Part shown: positions 14,306-58,466 of the stretch, one piece after another | Layout: every line of letters begins with the position of its first letter | Numbering within the stretch: position 1 is the stretch's first letter | Assembly: GCF_036321535.1 (NCBI RefSeq) | Contig: NC_087436.1 | Span: 63,614,001-63,678,000, forward strand | Length of the DNA stretch: 64,000 bases | From: Camelus dromedarius | Lineage: Eukaryota | Reading direction: 5' to 3' | The notes under the pieces: generated by a model | What the model saw: only the letters and a program-made list of their open reading frames with translations | Databases searched by the model: none | Told to the model about the DNA's origin: nothing | Translations under genes and position numbers: made by a program

Positions 14306-14362
14306 CTGGCTTCCTTGGGATGGGGTGACAGGGAGGACTGCTGATCGCAGTCTTCTCCTTGT
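14306..14362 (-). CDS. Candidate exon (57 nt)
   Basis: Acceptor tttgcatatgtag, donor CAG|gtgagc, GC-rich. Phase-2 reading QGEDCDQQSSLSPHPKEA(R). Confidence 0.55.
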
Positions 14363-14725
14363 CTACATATGCAAATTTTATTTTTATAGTGTACATTTGA
14401 CTGGTTGTACAGACAACATAGAAGACACAATGATAACTGTCCAAAAACAATGCAGATTTATTAAGTTGTATTTACAGTTGTATTAAGTTTGAACTTTCCA
14501 TCAAGTTAATTCTCATCATCAGTACTTTATTTATTTCTAAATACTATCATATAAGTGACTTTGTCACTTAGCAGACTACTACTCAAGATTCTGTGTAGAG
14601 CTTTCCTTGATACCCTACCACAGGATCCATACTTACGATATCTACTGCCTAATAACCTTGCCTTAATGTCTCCATGGCTAAAATTATCACACCACATTTT
14701 AAATGAGATGTGCCCTCAATATACT

Positions 14726-14899: not shown

Positions 14900-16500
14900 A
14901 TACTTTCACTGCTATAGTTGTTAAAAGCCAATTCTATTAGTTTGAAAACTTAGAAAAAACCAATTTCTCCACTCACCTCCAAATGAGGTCAGTGGGTGTG
15001 CAAATGTTTTGGGGTAATTCTTCCAGTGTAGGCTACTGTTGGTGGTAACATTGTCACTAAGTTTGATAGTTTTCCATCATCTAGGTAAAGATTCATCAGC
15101 TCTTCAATTTCTGTAATGTCACCTAATCAATCCTGCAAATTAGAGTTGTTTGCACTGCTTAAAGAAGATTCTCTATAATTTCAGAAGACTTAAAAATGTC
15201 TTCACATATTATTTTATCAGGAATATTTTTGCTCAGTTGCTGTTTTATACTTACTTGCCTGAGATAAAATTTACCTTAATCTTGGATCTAGAAATAGAGC
15301 AATGGAGAAATTTGATTGGTTGCAATATGACAAATCTCTAAATTTCCACCTGCACCTCAGCTTTCATTTCCTGCACACTAATGTGCTATGAAGCAAAATG
15401 TTGGGAAAATCCTTATAGCAGGCACAATGTAAGAAATACTTCTGCTCTCCAGTCACACCAGTTTGGTTATTTCTTTACCCAGTTCTAACAAATAAACCAT
15501 GTTCTCTACAAGCAAGCTGTCTTGAAAGCTGGCATTGTTATTGGCAGAGTGCAGTGTTAAATCTTTAATTCAATCTTTTTAAAAATGCAGTAGCTTCTAT
15601 TCCATCTTGTTTGAGCATCTGATATCTGACAAAGTAGTTCCAACATCTCTTTTATGTCATGTAGATGTTTTTGAATTAAGTAGAGTGATAACATTAGCTC
15701 ACTATTTCCCTGCCTAAGGGCAGAAATTCTGTTACATTTTGTGTTATAATTACTTTTCTAACATACAATTGAAATATGTGGGAAAAATACCCATCGTCTG
15801 CTTATTTACATGTCATTCCTAGCCTTTGCCACTTTTGGTGCATTGTCAGTCACAATTATTTGACATTTGCTTTACCGATTTTCCATTCCATAAATAGTTC
15901 ATCAGTCAGATCCACTCAGTAAAGCAGTAACTCAACATTGTAAAACTTAAAAATATGTATATATGGTTTTATCTTTATGTCTAAATGTGTGATTATAAAA
16001 GTTAGAAAAATACTAATTCAATAATATTGCTAACATTTATGTTGGTATGCACTGAAGAATGTAAGTCAAGTACTTAGTGTTTCAGTAACATGTCTTATAA
16101 ATGGAATTCTGTTACTTAGAATTAACAGCTTGAATTAAACTAAAAATTCTTTGATATTCATCCACAGAAAATGTGTGGTATTCTTTTGCAGACATTTCAG
16201 TAAGACTTTGCTCAAAATTTTTGCCTCTATAGGCTTAAAATCATCAGAAGATTACTAAATCATTTGTGAAAACTCTGTTTTGAAGTTTGGTAAATGAAAA
16301 CAACATATGGTTTTCAGTACATTATTTATCTCCAACTTTTAAAATTCTCTTCTTACCCACTATTTTTATATCATAATTAAAAACTATTTATCGTAGATAT
16401 TTGGGGTCTTTTCTTTCTCATGAAATTTTGTAGTGGCATTGTTCTCTTAAATCATTTTCTCAACTTGCACAGAATTCCCAAAAAGGAATACTAAAGTCAA
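14900..16500 (-). mobile_element. Ancient hAT (Ac-group, ZBED1/ZBED4-like) transposase fossil, near full length, multiply frameshifted
   Basis: Collinear degenerate motifs on the minus strand: BED-finger-like FWEF..END...C..KIS (~16400-16490), EMSAKEYHTFSVDE (16157-16198), IVTDNAPKVAKA (~15820-15856), YFSHIFQL (CxxH-like, 15766-15789), DAQTRWNRSY (~15590-15620), ALFLDPRL (~15277-15300), and hATC-like EELMNLYLDD...PTLEEL...PLTSFGGE (~14960-15110). Confidence 0.8.
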
Positions 16501-16679
16501 AGCCAAATTTCTATGCTTCCTGAAATATGTGTTTATGTGAATACTGTCTCCAACAAACTATGATAATCATAAGAAAAGAGACTGCATTTTATTTCTCTCG
16601 TTGTCAAGAATAGAGCATGACAGATACAAGGCACTCAATAAACACTTGTGGACTGAAAAAAAGTGTGTTTAAAATAATA

Positions 16680-16900
16680 CAGCATGATGTAATGGAAAAG
16701 ATTTGCATTTGCATTCAGAAAGATTTATTTTTCCATTTGCTAGCATTGTGATCCTAGGGAATTTAATTAACATCTCTGAATGTAAATTTCCTCATCTGCA
16801 GAATAGTCCTGAAACTCCCTGAGTTGTTGCGATATGTGTAAGGGTATTTTAAAACACCAGCACAATGCTTGCCATCTAGTAAGTGCTCAGTATGGTGACT
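16680..16900 (+). mobile_element. MIR SINE
   Basis: tgtgatcctaggga..ttaacatctctg...tttcctcatctgca...agcacaatgc..gtaagtgctca. Confidence 0.75.
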
Positions 16901-20867: not shown

Positions 20868-21087
20868 ATACTAACTACTAGATATAAAATAGATAAACAA
20901 CAAGTTTCTACTGTATAGCTCAGGGAACTATATTTAATGTCATAGTAACGTACAATGAGAAAATATGAAAAGGAATTTATGTATATATACATAAAACTGA
21001 AACATTATGCTATAGACCAGAAATTGGCACAACACTGTAAACTGACTATACTTCAATAAAAATAAATAAAATAGAAAAAATAATAAA
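20868..21087 (+). mobile_element. Young L1 3' end nested in the 5' region of the older L1; 14-bp TSD
   Basis: TSD aaggtatctgctac at 20854-20867 and 21088-21101. Ends aactgactatacttcaataaa plus an A-rich tail. Confidence 0.9.
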
Positions 21088-21580: not shown

Positions 21581-24204
21581 AGAGTGAAAAAAGCCTACAA
21601 GAGCTTTCAGATAGATTATGATAAGAAAGGCAAATATTCAAATAACTAGGGTTTCAAAAGAAGAAGAGAGGGATAAGGGGGCAGAAAGTTTATTTAAAGA
21701 AATAATAGCTGAGAACTTCCCAAACTTGGGAAGGGACTTGAACATACACATTCATGGAGCTAATAGAACATACTGTTATCTAAATACAAAGAGACCTACT
21801 CCAAAATACATCATAAAGAAACTGCCAAAAATCAGTAATAAAGAAAGAATCTTAAAGGCAGTGAAAGGAAATAGAATGTAACTTACAAAGGAACCCCCAT
21901 TATATCAGCAATTTCTCAGCAAAAATTCTACAGGCCAGGAGAAAGTAGAATGATATATTCAAAGTGTGGAAGAAAAAAAATTACCAGCCAAGAATGCTTT
22001 ATTCAGAAAAGTTATCCTTCAGTATGAAAGAGAAATAAATGTTTTCCTAAAAGAACAAAAGCTGAGGGAGTTTACCAACACTAGACCTGCCTTGAGAGAA
22101 ATGCTGAACGGAGTTCTTTAAGCTAAAATGAAAAGATGCTGATCAGTGACATGATAACATATATAAGTGTACACTACACTAACAAAGGTGAAAAATAGAC
22201 CAGATTTAGGAAACAGTAACTCTCTTTTAGGACAATGTTTTAACCACTCAACTGTAGTAAAAGAGAAAAAGAGTAGTAAAAATAACTATAGCTACTATAA
22301 TTGTTATCTAATACGTGACATTAAAAATAGGTAAATTATAACATCAATAATATGAAAGGGAATATTAAGGTTTGGCGCCTCTAGAGATTTTGAATATGCT
22401 ATCAATCTAAAATGGACTGTTTTATCTGTCAGATGCTTTATGTAATCTACAAGTTAACCACATAGTAAAAAATGGAGAGTAAATCCACAGAAGACAAAGA
22501 AAGTGGAAACAGAGCATATCACCATGGGAAATAACCAATTTACAAAAGTAGGCAGAGAGGGAAAAAGAAATAGCAAAAAATACAAAACAACCAGAGAATA
22601 ATTAATAAGATTCCCACATATAAATAATCACTCTAATGTAAATGAACTGAATTCACCAGTCAAAAGGCACAGAGTGGCTGGATGGATTAAAAAGCAAGAC
22701 TCAATTATATGCTGGTTGCAGGAGACTCATTTCATCTCTAAAGACATAATAGGCTCAAAGTAAAGGGGTAGAAGATTTTCCACACATGTGGAAACCAAAA
22801 GAAAGCAGGCATAGCCATATACATACCAGACAAAATAGACTTTATGGCAAAAATGGTAACAGGAGACCTAGAAGTCATTATATATTGAAAAAGGTGTCAA
22901 GAAGATATAACAATCATCATAAACATGTATGCATCTCACACGGAAGCACCTAAATATATCAAGTAAGTACTAACAGATCTGAAGGGAGAAATACACAACA
23001 GAATAATAGGGGACTTTAGTACCTCATTTTCAGCAATATATAGATAATACAGACAGAAAATCAACAAGGAAATATTGGAATTGAACAATACTTTAAACCA
23101 AAATGGACTTAATCAGCACCTATAGAACATTCCATGTGACAGCAACAGAACATACATTCTTTTCAAGTGCACACAGGACATTCTCTATGATAGATCATAC
23201 AATAGAACATAAAACAAGTCTTAGAAAATTTAAAATTGAAATTATACCAACTGACCACAAAGGAATGAAACTAGAAATGAACAAGAGGAAAGCTAGAAAA
23301 TCTGAAATATGTGGAAACTAAACAACACTTCTAAACAACACTTGGGTCAAAGAAGAAGTCAAAGGAGAAATTAAAAAATGCTGCAAAGCAAATGAAAGTG
23401 AAAACACAACATATCAAAACATATAAGATGCTGCAGGCATAGTTCATAGAGAAGAGAATTCATAGTGATAAATCCATGTATTAAAAAAGTAGAAAGATCT
23501 TAAACCAACAACCTAACTTTACATCATGAGAAACTAGAAGAAGAAGAAAAAAGTAAGTCCAGAGTTGGCAGAAGGAAGGAGATAATAAAAATCAGGGTGG
23601 AAATAAAGAAATAGAGACCAGGAAAAAAACAAACAAACTGAAAACTAATTTTCTGAAAAGATAAAATTGACAAACTTTTAGCTAGACTGAAGAAAAAAAA
23701 AAGAGTGAAGACCCAAAATAAGAAATGTAAGAGGAGACATTAAAACTGATACTACAGAAATGCATAGAATCAAAAGAGACACTACAAGAAATGAAAACTA
23801 TAAACGAATATCCCTGATGGATACAGACGTAAAAATTTTCAACAAAATACTAGCAAACCAAATTCAAGAACACATTAAAAGGATTATACACAGTAACCAA
23901 GTGGCATCTTTTCCTGGGATGCAAGGAAGGTTCAACATATGCAAATCAAAAACTGTTAATATATTACATTAATAGAATGAAAGATAAAAATTACATGATC
24001 ATCTGCATCTATGTATGCAGAAAAAGCATTTGACAAAATGCAACATTCTTTCATGATAAAAACCTTCAACAGATTGGGTTTAGAAGGAACAAACCTCAAC
24101 ATAATAAAGGCCATATACAACAAACCCATAGTTAATATTCAATGGTGAAAAACTGAAAGCTTTTCCTTTAAGATCAGGAACAAGATAAGGATGTCCACTC
24201 ATAC

Positions 24205-24599
24205 CTTCCCCAACACTCCTCCAAGGGCAGCCCCCCAGACCCCCATGGGGTCACCCATGAGGAGAGATGGCCTTCTCTTGCCCCTCCCTGGGGCATGGAG
24301 GGTGGAGTGGGCCCCCCCCCCAGTCCCCCATAACTCCCTGTATATCTGTATAAATAACTGGGATTTTAATGGAGCCCCACCCCACCCATGTTGTTATCAC
24401 TGTGTGATAGCCTGTCAGTCTCCCCTCCAGGCCCTCCACTCTCTTCCTCTATTTATTTCACTCTCTTTTTTAGGTTCCACCCTGTGCCCTCTGGCCCCCT
24501 TCTAGGTTCCTGTTTATAAGCCCCATCCCCTCTGCCCTGGACTTATATGTGAAACTTGTCTTAATAAACCCTTTGGAGTAAAAAAAATACATATATATA
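24205..24599 (+). pseudogene. Processed retrocopy of the 3' UTR of an unidentified GC-rich mRNA, nested in L1 ORF2
   Basis: Abrupt C-rich non-L1 block. AATAAA at 24563-24568 and A-run at 24580-24587. L1 ORF2 resumes (atagtactggaagtcctagc) where it was interrupted (ggatgtccactc). Confidence 0.8.
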
Positions 24600-30512: not shown

Positions 30513-31276
30513 GCACATGGGAAATGTTTAGAGATTTCAGATTAGTAATAAATGAGGAAAAGTGAGTATATGGGAACTGTTTCATGTAGTGGCAAAATTT
30601 CAATAGCAGGCAAAACCCAAGGTGACCTCAAAAGCATGTTGTGTTACCTATAAAACCTAGAATATTTACAGTAACTAAATGGTGTTTACTCAAACAAATG
30701 TACACAATCTTGGTCTAGCAAGAAATAAGAAAAAAGAGAAAATAAAATCGGTATTTTATTTTTTAAAATAATTTCTCTGTATTTTATCAGAAACAGGAGT
30801 TCCAGCTTCTCAAATACCTATCAGGTTCTCAATTCTTGACTACTAGAAATCTCCACTATTCATTTAAGGAAGAAATCACCCAGGCATATACAATTTACAA
30901 AAAGAAATTATGTGAAAGCTTAAGTATATTCAGTCAGTATATTTTCAATATGATTATTTTTATGAAATATGTAGTCATTCAGTTATCTCAAATCTTTGAC
31001 TACATTTTTCTCTGAATGAGTCAATCCACATAGGAGTAAAAGTAGTTAAATTAACTTTTAAAGTTGTTATTAGAATATCATATTAAATCATCCTGATTTA
31101 AGAATTAGTCCAAAGGAAATTTTTTTTTGTTTTCTCCATTTTTCCTCGATGTTTTTCTGTTTTCTTATCTATAGTCACGCTTTTTTCTTTTCCTGTCTTC
31201 ATACATGCTCCCTTCATTTCTCTCTCATTTTCTTCTTTCTCTTCTTTCATTCTATCATTGAACCATTTTCTTTATT

Positions 31277-31795
31277 TGTAAATGCATTGATGATGCTTTT
31301 CACATTCTGCTGCTTTGACATCTTGGGGTCTTGCTGACATGGGAGAGACTGACATTCCGGGGCTGGGACTGACTAGCCTGCAAGTGTGCCTTTCACAGGC
31401 AGATCAGCCAACCCAAAGCCTATACCCTAAACTCTCTCCTTTGCCCAGATCTCAGACCACTTTCTTTCCATCCTAATTACCCCAGAGCCAGCTAACAGAC
31501 ACCTGTAACAGCCCCTATACCCCAGAGCCTGCTGAAATTATTCAATCTTGCCAATTCTAAACAGGCTTACCCTGTCATGCCTTTCCTGTGGAAACCACGA
31601 TAAAGGCTTTTACCACTTCTTGCAGCCCTTTCTGCCTCCTTCCTGACTCCCATGTTTCTCCTTGTGGCCCTGCAAGGCATGCCAAGTCCCCCCTCTTGGG
31701 AACTGTGAGAAACCACTGTCTCTTCAATGGAAATCAACTCCTGATCTGTTGGCCTGACTGTACCTGAATAATAAAATCCACATTTTAAAATAGTA
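31277..31795 (+). mobile_element. MER74-like ERVL LTR
   Basis: gctttgacatcttggggtcttgctgac...gtgcctttca...ggaactgtgag...aataaaatc. Confidence 0.75.
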
Positions 31796-38939: not shown

Positions 38940-39622
38940 CTGGGAGGCAAGTTTCACAGTGTAAGCAATTTCATAGCAAGAGGCAATAACATTAGCCAAT
39001 GAGCAGGACAAAAAAATGCTTTGTCATGAGACTATGAAAAAGCTATGTCACTAGGCAGAGCTCACACTCACTATTACACTGACAAGACAGAGACACGGAG
39101 ACTCAAGTGGAAATAAAGATTAGGCAAGTTGAACTATTCTTGATTAAGAGCCAATACTGCAAATTTCTATTATCAGGGGCAGTGGCATTCACGTGCCACT
39201 CTCCAATAGAGGTTATCTTATATATTTCAGAAGTAATCACAGATTCCTGAAACTGGGCAACAATACAAACAAAACAAAAATAAGATTAAAAGCCCCCGTT
39301 TTTCTAAATGATGATGCCACCACTTCTCTAATCTTCATGTATCATTTATAGAATAAGCCAGTAGGATGGCTTTCCTCTCACTCAGTTGGCCTTTCTTAGC
39401 CCTTTTCTGCTTCTCTTTTGTGAATGCCCACTCCAGAAACCTAAAATGCTAAAAGGCCAGGATTCCATCTTTCCTTCTCCTGTGAACTCAGTCTTCTTCC
39501 CTTTCCACCAGTGAACCACTTCATCCAATGGGGAGTCGGCAGATTCAAATTATCTTCCATTTATCTTTCTTCTCAAGGCATTAATTTTTTTCTCTTATTT
39601 GAAAATGCAGTAAGAGCCTTAC

Positions 39623-39679
39623 CACAATATGAGTTGTAGGGTCTACAAATTCAATCACACAAAATGCTGGGTCATGTTG
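39623..39679 (-). pseudogene. Candidate exon (57 nt; could extend upstream to the acceptor at 39893)
   Basis: Acceptor atttcattgaccttacag, donor GTG|gtaagg. Phase-0 reading is open (QHDPAFCVIEFVDPTTHIV); phase-2 reading has 2 stops. Lies inside the 131-aa minus-strand ORF 39581-39976. Confidence 0.5.
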
Positions 39680-42600
39680 CTGTAAGGTCAATGAAATGAC
39701 TGTGATAAGCCTGTGCAGATAGTTGGTCAGAGAATCTGAGCCTGGGAGATCCAGATCCTTCCAAGTCCTGTCTGCAATTTGGTGCCACCTGGTGGCAGTT
39801 GTCCACTGCAGTGTAAACAATAAATGGGGATAACTCCGGGTCTTGGGATAGGATAGAACTTCTGAGACAGAAGCAGTGATTCCAGGAATCCACCTAGGGA
39901 TGGACACATCTTGTTGACCCACCCTGGAGGCACTGGAGCAGGGGAATAACGAGGATATGAGGACCCATCTTCTCAAGATACAGTTGTTGCCGTTTCCCTA
40001 CTTGGCCTTGTGTTCCCTCCAGAAGGAAAAGACTAGACCACCACCATTCGAAAATCTAGGTTGGAGGATACAAGCTAATCACTAATGTCATTATTTCCAA
40101 ACTTGGATGAACTCAGGGTGAACTATCACAGTTTTGCTGTATTAGTTTTCTAGTTCCTGCCTGATTTTACCCTTTAGCTTCTTTCTTAAGACCCTTGTCA
40201 TACTTCTAGACAATCACAGCAGCTTCTCAGCCTGTTCCCTTGAATCTTCAAGATTTAGCTCAAATATATTTTTTTCCTAAATGTTTCCTAGTCTCATCCC
40301 CCAGGCTTGCATGCCCTTCTTTTCTGTCCCCCTAGTATCCTATGTCAACATTTACACAGGGCATCTCAGCCTCTCCTAACACATCACTTTGTCATCTGCC
40401 CTTTTGGTCTTGAGCTACTTTAGGGCAACGACCTGTAACCATTTTATTCCCAGCATCAACCATAGTGCCTAGAAAATTGCAGATGATTATCTAAATGTAA
40501 CTTTATATATTTCTCTCATTTTACACATTCAAAACATTACAAGTCACTTCTTCATTGGCCCTCTACTACTTTAAAGAGTATTTTACTCATAGCAGCAGAA
40601 TGACAGCTTATTTGAGCTGAAAGAATCTTTGTCTAAAACTTAAACATTTACTTTGTTGATTGAATATAGAAGCTAAATATTGACTCCTCCAGGATATTAA
40701 TTTTAACATTACTACTGTCCACATAAAGTCATCTTACCCTCTATATTTTCTTTTTTCTCATTTTTCTTCACCAGTGTCAGACACCTATTAATTAACAACA
40801 AACTTCTGTGCACCTGCGATGATCAAGACATAGCACTGGGCAATGTGGAGGTTACAAAAATACTGGAAGAGCTTATCCTTATTGTCTTGGACCTAAAATG
40901 TAGTTAAAGAAATGATGCTGAGAATGTTGAGGATAATGATTAAAAAAAAAAAAACAACCCACGATCATCTTTTAAAAAGCAAATTATGTACTAGGTGTTA
41001 TACCGATTGTTTTATAATGAACTGAAAAGGCATATAACATTTCCTACCCTATGGATGACCAATGAGGCAGGTTTGAAGATACCAAAACCTGCCCAGATGT
41101 GTATAGAGTGAATAAATGTTGAACTAATACTCAAACCTCAACTCTTGAGATTAATGGCCCAAGCTCTAAACTATGACATTACTCTCATGTTTAAAAAAAA
41201 AAAAAGTAACACGGGATAGAAAATACTGATATGGAAGATGAAAAGAGAAAGATTATCTCCCAGAAGACTATTTAGGAAAAGTTTTCCAAAGGAAGTAGGA
41301 TCTTGGAAACTATGGAGAGAAAAGGAATAGAAGGAAATATGTCTGGAAAAGAGGTGACTAGATATCAAGCTTCATACTGGAGAAGTCTACAGAGTGTTCT
41401 TTCATTTCTAATATATAAAATCTCATGTCCTCCCTCTCATTATGGTATTCACATTAGCTTACTGTCTCAGTAGAGATTTTGACTTCATAGGGATTCTTTT
41501 TTTAACTTTTTGCCTGAGAACTTTGAGGGGAAAAAAAAAAGTAGAAAACAATCATTTTAGATTAGGTCTAGTCTGTGATCATGGGACAGGACAAAGTAAG
41601 GTAATTAAAAAAGTAAACATCAAGTGCACCAGGTAGACTTTTACTACCCACAGGTAAATAGTATTCAAAAATGTACATATCTCTGTGCTTTTTTTTTTTT
41701 TTTTTTTTTACTTTTAAAGTCATATAGTTGAAGAAGTAATATAGTTTATATTTTCAGTTAGGAACATAATAGTAACTTTTTATGATCCTTAATATCATGG
41801 CTAGAGTTTTCTTGCTGCCTCATTAATGTGCTAATAGGTCACAGAGAGCAAAAGTACGAGCAAAATGACAGAAGCCTATAACTGCAGAAAGTGGCATAAG
41901 AATGAGCATTCGAGTCATATTTTTATAAATAAGTGAAATAGTTGGTTGCTGATAAAATACACTTTATGAGAGAAGTATATTCAAAGGAATAGATGTGTTC
42001 CCTTAAAAAAAACTTCCACTAAGACACCATAATATCCAAGATTTCATTTTTTGAGAATTGTTGGCATAGGGAAATATTTTTAAAATGTAATCTCCAGTTA
42101 GTCCTTCTGTCGCCACTACTATTCAGGAAGAAACTATAGGTTTAGTTTTTGTATTCTAGTATAATCCATTTTGTCAGTGTTAATTGCCATTTGCCAGCCT
42201 GAGTTTTACTCTGCAAGGTCAAGGAGTCCATGACCTCTTAGCAAAATGAGCAAATCTCTTTCTGCTTCCTTTGTAATTTATCCGTCCAAAACCTTCCAGC
42301 AGTCTGCAACTATGTGGCCGGATCAAATATACACTGTTTCTTTGTCCATGAGTCATTTTTAAAATCAAGTAAGAGATATGAAATTACTCTGAAACTGAAT
42401 GGTGACTGAGAATTGTATGACATCATCATTACTATCATCTTCATATTATTATCTTCCTAGGATACATGGAAATCTTCCCCCAAGACATCTAGCAATCATC
42501 CTTTCTCAGAAGAGATGCAGATCAGAAGAATTCTCTTACTGAAATCTTGGTTTTGTCTGCTTTATTGAGAAACTTCTGTGTCTAGAATAAGCACATTTTG

Positions 42601-54804: not shown

Positions 54805-55387
54805 TGACATCTTTATCCAGTCATCTGTCAATGGACATTTAGGCTGTTTTCTTGTTTTAGCTATCGTAAATAATGCTGCTATATACTTGTTTTAGCTATC
54901 GTAAATAATGCTGCTATATACAATGGAATACTACTCAGCCATAAAGAATAATAAAATAATGCCATTTGCAGCATCATGGATGGACTGGAAATCATTATTC
55001 TAAGTGAAGTAAGCCAGAAAGAGAAAGAAAAATAATGTATGATATCATTTATATGTGGAATCTGAAAAAAAAAAAAGACAAATGAACTTATTTACAAAAC
55101 AAAAACACACTCACAGACACAGAAAACAAACTATGGTTACCAGGGAGGGAAGAGAGTGGGAAAGGATAAATTGGGAGTTTGGGATTTGCAGATAATAACT
55201 ACTATATATAAAATAGATAAACAAGCTATACTGTATAGCACAGGAAACTATATTCAATTTCTTGTAGTAACCCATAATGAAGAATATGCAAATGAGTATA
55301 TGTATGTATATCTATGACTGAACTATTATGCTGCACACCAGAAACTGACACAACATTGTAAACTGGATATACTTCAATTACAAAAAG
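54805..55387 (+). mobile_element. Young L1 3' end with 5' inversion (twin priming) and TSD
   Basis: 54807-54885 is minus-strand L1 and ~54915-55385 is plus-strand L1 3' UTR. TSD agaaatatgc(a/g)aa at 54792-54804 and 55388-55400. Confidence 0.85.
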
Positions 55388-57835: not shown

Positions 57836-58466
57836 TTTCTCTAATAATTAGCAATATTGAACACTTTTTTAATGTGCTTATTGGCCACTTGTATGTCTTA
57901 ATTGGAGAATTGCAAGTCTAGGTCTTCTGCCCAATTTTGGATTGGGTTGTATGTTTTTCATTAAGTTGTATGACCTGTTTATATAGTCTGGAAATTAAGC
58001 CCTTGTCAGTCTCATCTTTTGTAAACATTTTCTCCCATACTGTAGGTTGTCTTTTTGTTTTGCTTATGGTTTCCTTTGCTGTGCAAAAGCTTGTAAGTTT
58101 AATTAGGTCCCATTTATTTATTTTCACTTTTATTTCTATTTCTTGCTAAGATTTAGGTCAGATAATGTTTTGCCTATGTTTTCTTCTAGGAGATTTATAG
58201 TGTCTTTAAGTCTTTAAGCCATTTTGAGTTTATTACTGTATAGCACAGAGAACTATATTCAATATCTTGTACTAACTTATGGTGAAAAAGAATATGAAAA
58301 CACATATATGTATATTCATGTATGACTGAAGCATTATGCTATACACCAGGAATTGATACAACACTGTAAACTGACCATACTTCAATTAAAAAATATGCAT
58401 ACATAAATGAAAAAAATACAATTTCACAGATACTAATAAATTATAAATAGTAACAGGCAAAAAAAA
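57836..58466. mobile_element. Young L1 with 5' inversion and candidate 3' transduction, inserted into an MLT1 LTR
   Basis: 57836-58232 is minus-strand L1 ORF2 ([23 protein letters not shown]) and 58235-58393 is a plus-strand L1 tail, followed by ~65 bp with AATAAA (58435-58440) and A8. Confidence 0.8.

What the first reader, a model, noticed from the sequence alone, without database searches (positions are those of the whole stretch)
14900..16500. Near-complete ZBED1/ZBED4-like hAT transposase fossil invisible to the ORF track
Seen: a BED-finger-like N-terminus, EMSAKEYHTFSVDE, IVTDNA, a CxxH-like YFSHIFQL, DAQTRWNRSY, FLDPR and a hATC-like end, in the correct order over about 1.6 kb but split by many frameshifts. 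Established: this motif order characterises Ac-group hAT transposases, the source of the domesticated ZBED1/ZBED4/ZBED6 genes. Inference: retaining the whole coding span with no obvious TIRs suggests either a very old autonomous element that repeat libraries may cover poorly, or a once-domesticated intronic ZBED-like gene that later died (ZBED6 is likewise intronic). It lies sense to the host gene, about 0.5 kb upstream of the 14306-14362 exon.
Basis: partly seen in the sequence, partly recalled or inferred. Interest (0 to 1): 0.7.

Follow-up and report, generated by a model that had tools for sequence, protein, structure and literature searches.

The report
Ancient dead hAT transposase fossil
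This stretch is the long-broken remains of a cut-and-paste jumping-gene enzyme (hAT type) in a mammal genome; its relatives in other genomes are broken too, so it is most likely an ordinary old transposon copy rather than a lost host gene.

Summary
The hAT call holds, on the minus strand. A frameshift-aware alignment to a profile of 99 intact animal hAT transposases covers 16,228-15,212: 339 codons, 26% identity, 10 frameshifts, 6 stops. It scores 167 against a maximum of 56 in 40 control tiles. Four core segments each beat every control. The BED finger, the first-Asp strand and the hATC end do not, although collinear candidates exist. So 'near-complete' is only partly shown. In a tree the fossil falls among transposases that databases label 'ZBED4-like', not with the 'ZBED1-like' ones, on a very long branch. 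True ZBED1/4/6 were not available for comparison. The only close homologues found are 8 short gene-caller fragments from other assemblies (59-85% identity), all changing frame. The five that span one junction share the same frame offset, and they show no significant coding constraint (72% vs 67%, p=0.19). No intact close relative turned up in three searches, and no TIR/TSD above chance. Best reading: a dead autonomous hAT copy, probably broken before or around the placental radiation. A once-domesticated gene is not excluded (about 12%). Copy number, orthology and the host gene are untested.

The parts
15212..16228 (-). Statistically supported core of the hAT transposase fossil (profile positions 103-474 of 617): oligomerisation region, RNase-H-like catalytic core, helical insertion; 10 frameshifts, 6 stops
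   Evidence: 167 vs control max 56; frame segments
16040..16228 (-).
   Evidence: 41.6, 0 of 247 controls reach it
15890..16040 (-). Region expected to hold the first catalytic Asp; shorter than in intact proteins (gaps in the alignment), Asp not recognisable
   Evidence: alignment; 84 of 413 controls reach the score
15699..15888 (-). Second catalytic Asp (codon 15,847-15,845, intact) and CxxH-like motif (Cys lost, His kept)
   Evidence: 75.8, 0 of 413 controls; ruler
15574..15685 (-). Segment with the conserved Arg-Trp motif (15,619-15,590)
   Evidence: 55.6, 0 of 495 controls
15276..15560 (-). Helical insertion domain ending in the Asp-Pro-Arg motif (15,294-15,280); the part best covered by homologous fragments
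   Evidence: 68.7, 0 of 274 controls
14900..15114 (-). Candidate hATC dimerisation end with a possible third catalytic Glu at 14,969-14,967; collinear but not above chance
   Evidence: simulation one search suggests it is more damaged than the core
16388..16480 (-). Candidate single BED finger remnant at the expected spacing; not above chance
   Evidence: 54-107 of 311 controls reach it; 34 of 150 and 57 of 150
14306..14362 (-).
   Evidence: no Pfam match for two readings of it

Best explanation
The locus is one copy of an autonomous Ac-family hAT DNA transposon, from the animal clade whose transposases are usually labelled 'ZBED4-like'. Shown: homology, domain order, broken frame, broken homologues. 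Inferred mechanism: its intronless transposase (BED finger, DDE core with helical insertion, hATC) cut the element out at short TIRs and pasted it here with an 8-bp duplication in an early mammal. The copy was never under selection for protein and has drifted by roughly 0.15-0.35 substitutions per site, losing its frame, the first Asp region, the CxxH cysteine and recognisable ends. Today it makes no protein and at most is carried passively in unspliced RNA.
For: Profile alignment and segment tests. Placement inside a clade of 37 rows with local support 0.994, with at most 25% identity to any of 63 intact or partial hATs. All 8 hits among 1.84 billion representatives are 52-156-aa fragments, and 7 of 8 change frame against the window. 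All 5 clusters that span the Arg-Trp/helix junction (P0004, P0005, P0006/P0014, P0008, P0009) read it with the same off-frame offset, which points to a break in their common ancestor (inference). Identity to homologues is 285 of 396 in the transposase frame and 206 of 306 in other frames, p=0.19. No long relative. Randomly decayed natural hAT ORFs reproduce the score, identity and break counts at d about 0.25-0.35 (L014, L066). hAT was a major DNA-transposon group in human ancestry (PMC5753468, passages).
Against: No TIR/TSD was found (2 candidates vs control mean 1.6), and a second copy in this genome could not be sought (no genome held). A contiguous 1.0-1.6 kb coding span is long for a very old family: OldhAT1 pieces in human have a median of 269 bp and none is full length (10.64898/2026.04.14.718546, passages). 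The small identity excess in the transposase frame (72% vs 67%) goes in the direction of constraint, though it is not significant. The homologous fragments carry no species labels, so they may be paralogues rather than orthologues.
Confidence: 0.75

Rival explanations
1. A hAT transposase was domesticated in early mammals as an intronless, possibly intronic ZBED-like gene, kept open for a time by selection, and then lost before or at the base of placentals (a mirror image of ZBED6).
For: Long contiguous coding span with no recognisable ends. Probable sense orientation to a nearby strong donor. Long branch. Precedent: ZBED2, ZBED6 and C7ORF29 are intronic (PMC3606216 Table 1), and ZBED6 is non-functional at the orthologous place in opossum and platypus (PMC2780926, passage).
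Against: No intact close relative (the word-based searches are weak evidence; one search used one frame only). All homologous fragments are broken with a shared offset, and there is no significant frame-specific conservation. The decay pattern is matched by simple neutral drift.
Confidence: 0.12
2. A decayed duplicate or retrocopy of a known domesticated gene (ZBED4, ZBED6, ZBED1 or the ZBEDX/C7ORF29 group).
For: It falls in the clade labelled 'ZBED4-like'; this ZBED group expanded by repeated host duplications (PMC3606216).
Against: A copy of a conserved mammalian gene should still have found its parent. None appeared in the unfiltered search of 1.84 billion representatives or, although one search covered only 330-1,050 aa and ZBED4 is longer (recalled). 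There is room for one BED finger at most within the span, against 4 in ZBED4 and 2 in ZBED6. From recall, not tested: ZBED4 and ZBED6 have a degenerate Arg-Trp motif, whereas the fossil keeps the transposon-type form.
Confidence: 0.05
3. The transposon remnant is dead as protein but part of it has been exapted as a non-coding element (enhancer or splicing control for the nearby exon), which slowed its decay.
For: Conserved, exapted TE protein fossils are described in human, including 7 pre-amniote hAT-Ac fossils (PMC9004415, abstract and passages). Homologous fragments cluster at 15,900-15,100.
Against: The spread of identities (59-85%) looks like ordinary neutral divergence among mammals (inference). 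The clustering of fragments is also what few stop codons in one frame would give. No Rfam match.
Confidence: 0.08

Closest known systems
Animal hAT (Ac family) transposases annotated 'zinc finger BED domain-containing protein 4-like' (e.g. P0036 Cydia pomonella, P0069 Paramisgurnus dabryanus, P0038 Anthonomus grandis)
   Same: Domain order, second Asp, His of CxxH, Arg-Trp motif, helical insertion; best frameshift-aware scores (138, 129, 105); same clade.
   Different: Only 22-25% identity; frame broken at least 16 times; first Asp not recognisable; BED and hATC not significant.
Hermes transposase (PDB 4D1Q, 2BW3, 6DWW, 8EDG)
   Same: The only solved relatives of the natural hAT alignment A2 (4 of 4 hits, E about 1e-45). 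It supplies the mechanism: TIR recognition, DDE cleavage, 8-bp TSD (PMC10368747, passages).
   Different: The link is indirect, through intact relatives. The one fossil frame searched alone found no hAT structure.
Domesticated ZBED1, ZBED4, ZBED6, ZBED2/3, C7ORF29/ZBEDX
   Same: Ac-family origin; several are intronless and intronic (PMC3606216, PMC2780926).
   Different: They have intact ORFs conserved at syntenic sites; this locus is broken here and in every homologue found.
Old mammalian hAT repeat families (OldhAT1; Blackjack, Charlie, Cheshire, Arthur, Zaphod)
   Same: Dead hAT copies in mammal genomes (PMC5753468; OldhAT1; its hAT-Ac label is recalled).
   Different: No Dfam or Repbase library was on hand, so family identity is open. 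This copy is much longer than typical OldhAT1 pieces.

Membership tests
hAT superfamily, Ac family | Significant collinear homology to hAT transposases | tested here: met
hAT superfamily, Ac family | DDE triad | tested here: inconclusive
   second Asp intact; first Asp not recognisable; candidate Glu lies in a non-significant stretch
hAT superfamily, Ac family | CxxH and Arg-Trp motifs, helical insertion in the catalytic domain | tested here: met
   Cys replaced by Tyr, His, Arg and Trp kept
hAT superfamily, Ac family | N-terminal BED finger | tested here: inconclusive
   collinear candidate at 16,480, not above controls
hAT superfamily, Ac family | C-terminal hATC dimerisation domain (PF05699) | tested here: inconclusive
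   collinear candidate, not above controls; score 22.5, below the 29-124 range of decayed controls with a similar core score
hAT superfamily, Ac family | 10-25 bp TIRs and 8-bp TSD (PMC3942097) | tested here: inconclusive
   2 candidates vs control mean 1.6 (27 control placements), neither with a hAT-like start; expected to be unreadable at this age
hAT superfamily, Ac family | Phylogenetic placement in Ac rather than Buster or Tip | tested here: inconclusive
   nested among 'ZBED4-like' animal hATs (support 0.994), but the tree held no Buster or Tip sequences, and the reference set was gathered with an Ac-type motif
hAT superfamily, Ac family | Multiple dispersed copies | not testable with these tools
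   no genome held
Domesticated ZBED genes | Intact ORF | tested here: not met
   10 frameshifts and 6 stops; homologues also broken
Domesticated ZBED genes | Purifying selection on the coding frame | tested here: not met
   indirect frame-contrast test, 72% vs 67%, p=0.19; dN/dS itself not computable without DNA
Domesticated ZBED genes | Single copy at a syntenic site, with an intact orthologue in some lineage | tested here: inconclusive
   no intact close relative; synteny and copy number not testable
OldhAT1 or other named mammalian hAT families | DNA match to the family consensus | not testable with these tools
   no Dfam or Repbase library available

The most novel reading that the evidence does not exclude
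The locus is the single-copy corpse of an undescribed hAT-derived host gene of early mammals, a further ZBED-type domestication that stayed open long after insertion and was lost in the placental stem, perhaps surviving in marsupials or monotremes. A weaker version: it is an unusually complete relic of an autonomous Ac-family element missing from mammalian repeat libraries.
Probability: 0.12. Interest if true: 0.55.

Novelty: new member of a known kind. Interest (0 to 1): 0.25.

Why it matters
As a dead copy it matters little: vertebrate genomes hold 100,000-500,000 TE protein fossils (PMC9004415). Its value is as a long piece of an old Ac-family transposase that could help name or extend an ancient mammalian repeat family, which is usually recovered only in pieces of about 270 bp. 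If an intact syntenic orthologue exists outside placentals, it would add a ZBED-type domestication followed by loss, the reverse of the ZBED6 history.

Tried and rejected
Single-frame Pfam scans and a PDB sequence search found no hAT; the weak hits (DUF7830, GlpM, echovirus VP4, E 0.01-1.9) were rejected as chance. Homologue searches with frame 1 residues 120-360 and with the fragment alignment A5 against 274-2,000-aa proteins gave nothing; both score only the 8,000 best word-sharers, so they are weak evidence. The one unfiltered search used a single frame, the one that holds the helical-insertion segment but none of the quoted motifs. A motif scan of viral contigs gave 0. Fragment alignments A1, A3 and A4 were misaligned by MAFFT and not used. 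Four designs to show the BED and hATC ends all failed. Repeat finding and a TIR/TSD scan gave chance-level pairs. Dating from raw break counts gave d about 0.1-0.25, but one search shows the aligner undercounts breaks, so the wider range 0.15-0.35 is used. Host gene: 14 candidate ORFs or exons gave no Pfam match above cut-off, and Rfam gave 0. Six literature searches listed nothing on this locus; most hits were seen as listings only. Earlier-findings look-ups near the locus, by sequence and by words gave no note on it.

Full report
Observation. They lie in different frames, no ORF of 90 aa or more overlaps them, and Pfam sees no hAT domain in any single frame (0 of 6 frames; 0 of 15 tiles). 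To test them I gathered natural hAT transposases. A motif scan of metagenome contigs returned 120 loci; 12 of 15 ORFs checked carry hAT Pfam domains. An alignment of four of them retrieved 426 proteins, of which the best 120 were listed and used. The only solved relatives of that alignment are Hermes structures.

Homology. With a frameshift-aware aligner, a profile of the 99 proteins of at least 480 aa aligns positions 103-474 to 16,228-15,212: 339 codons, 25.7% identity to the profile consensus, 10 frameshifts, 6 stops, score 167. Forty control tiles of the same window average 35 with a maximum of 56; that maximum is a purine-rich low-complexity stretch. The reference set was selected on the Arg-Trp motif, so I masked it: L099 still scores 83 against a control maximum of 47, while L014 masked (49) does not beat its controls (51). 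Three segments outside that motif each exceed all their controls. The BED finger, the first-Asp strand and the hATC end do not, under local, relaxed, anchored and flank-swap tests. Candidates for both ends sit at the expected distances (16,480; 15,114-14,900), so the element probably spanned the 1.6 kb, but only the 1.0-kb core is shown. Decayed controls with a similar core score keep hATC scores of 29-124 against 22.5 here (8 replicates each), so the 3' end seems to have suffered extra damage.

Placement. The six retrieved proteins named 'ZBED1-like' score 43-53, near background, while 'ZBED4-like' ones reach 138. In a FastTree tree of 64 rows the fossil, read with X at its breaks, lies inside a clade of 37 rows with support 0.994. 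It has no supported sister group, a branch of 2.49 substitutions per site and at most 24.8% identity to any row. Three caveats apply: the labels are automatic names for transposon proteins, the set is biased toward relatives of my queries, and neither the true ZBED1/4/6 nor Buster or Tip elements were in the tree.

Relatives of the fossil itself. An unfiltered search of 1.84 billion representatives with one frame found 8 proteins, all 52-156 aa, unnamed, from Logan or ENA contigs. Aligned back (one member per cluster), they are 59-85% identical and 7 of 8 change frame against the window. They are gene-caller ORFs in homologous, broken DNA. All 5 clusters that span the junction between the Arg-Trp motif and the following helix read the motif one base out of register, and the window is out of register there too, by a different offset. 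An in-register homologue would have been at least as easy to call, so the break was probably present in their common ancestor (inference). Under coding selection, identity should be higher in the transposase frame than in shifted frames; it is 285 of 396 against 206 of 306 (p=0.19). Two word-based searches found no long relative, which is weak evidence. The fragments have no species labels or flanks. Their range of identities fits orthologues across placental mammals, but paralogues are not excluded.

Age and ends. Randomly decayed natural hAT ORFs match the fossil's score, identity and break counts at about 0.25-0.35 substitutions per site for the two animal-type sources, and its score at 0.15 for a more distant source. 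At recalled mammalian neutral rates this is of the order of 70-170 million years. At such divergence a 14-bp TIR pair and an 8-bp TSD would not stand out, and the scan found only chance-level candidates. The lack of TIRs therefore does not favour domestication.

Context. The window is AT-rich and repeat-laden. Assembly sizes near 2 Gb, L1 3' ends of a camelid type (recalled) and earlier notes on this genome point to a camelid. The donor at 14,306 is the best of 3,335 on the minus strand, the 14,362 acceptor is average, and one at 14,436 is better. An exon on the fossil's strand is thus plausible but unverified. Distances to PPP3CA, the casein cluster and SLC4A4 in earlier notes, set against recalled gene order, suggest the ARHGAP24/MAPK10 neighbourhood; this is a guess and was not tested.

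Mechanism and verdict. Most likely (0.75) an autonomous Ac-family hAT inserted here by cut-and-paste transposition in an early mammal and decayed neutrally. Homology and decay are shown; the insertion mechanism is inferred from Hermes and other hATs (PMC10368747 and PMC3942097, passages). The main rival (0.12) is a domesticated gene that later died. It has precedent in intronic ZBED2, ZBED6 and C7ORF29 (PMC3606216, parts 1-3 of 4 and the text of Fig. S4; its alignment file S2 was not read and bears on a direct ZBED comparison) and in dead ZBED6 orthologues of opossum and platypus (PMC2780926, passages). Its only support here is the length of the remnant, compared with OldhAT1 pieces of median 269 bp (10.64898/2026.04.14.718546, passages; its supplements were not seen). 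TE protein fossils, including hAT-Ac, are a catalogued class (PMC9004415: abstract, passages, part 1 of 4 of the results; supplement not read). The autonomous human hAT families listed are Blackjack, Charlie, Cheshire, Arthur and Zaphod (PMC5753468, passages). Which family, if any, this copy belongs to is open. Six searches showed no paper on this locus. New member of a known kind; interest 0.25.

Noticed in passing
window 14,306-14,436 (-): The strongest minus-strand donor of the window lies at 14,306.
   Followed up: partly
window about 24,195-24,590 (+): GC-rich insert of about 390 bp ending in a polyadenylation signal (24,563-24,568) and a short A run, inside an L1-like stretch; looks like the 3' UTR of a processed pseudogene (seen).
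   Followed up: no
window about 16,610-16,660 and 16,690-16,860: L2-like 3' end and MIR-like element just upstream of the fossil (recognised from memory); they may cover its 5' end.
   Followed up: no
window about 20,880-21,060, 55,000-55,380, 58,240-58,380: Related L1 3'-end pieces of a type recalled from camelids.
   Followed up: no
window 54,851-54,921: Exact 35-nt tandem duplication inside an L1 fragment.
   Followed up: no
window 30,939-31,357 (-): The best control hit of the hAT profile (56) is a purine-rich low-complexity stretch matching the charged linker; an artefact.
   Followed up: yes
window 39,581-39,997 (-): Longest stop-free frame of the window (138 aa) with a good donor at 39,623; no Pfam match.
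   Followed up: partly
L014:504-2405 (-): A metagenome contig holds an apparently intact 634-aa animal-type hAT transposase with BED and hATC domains.
   Followed up: partly
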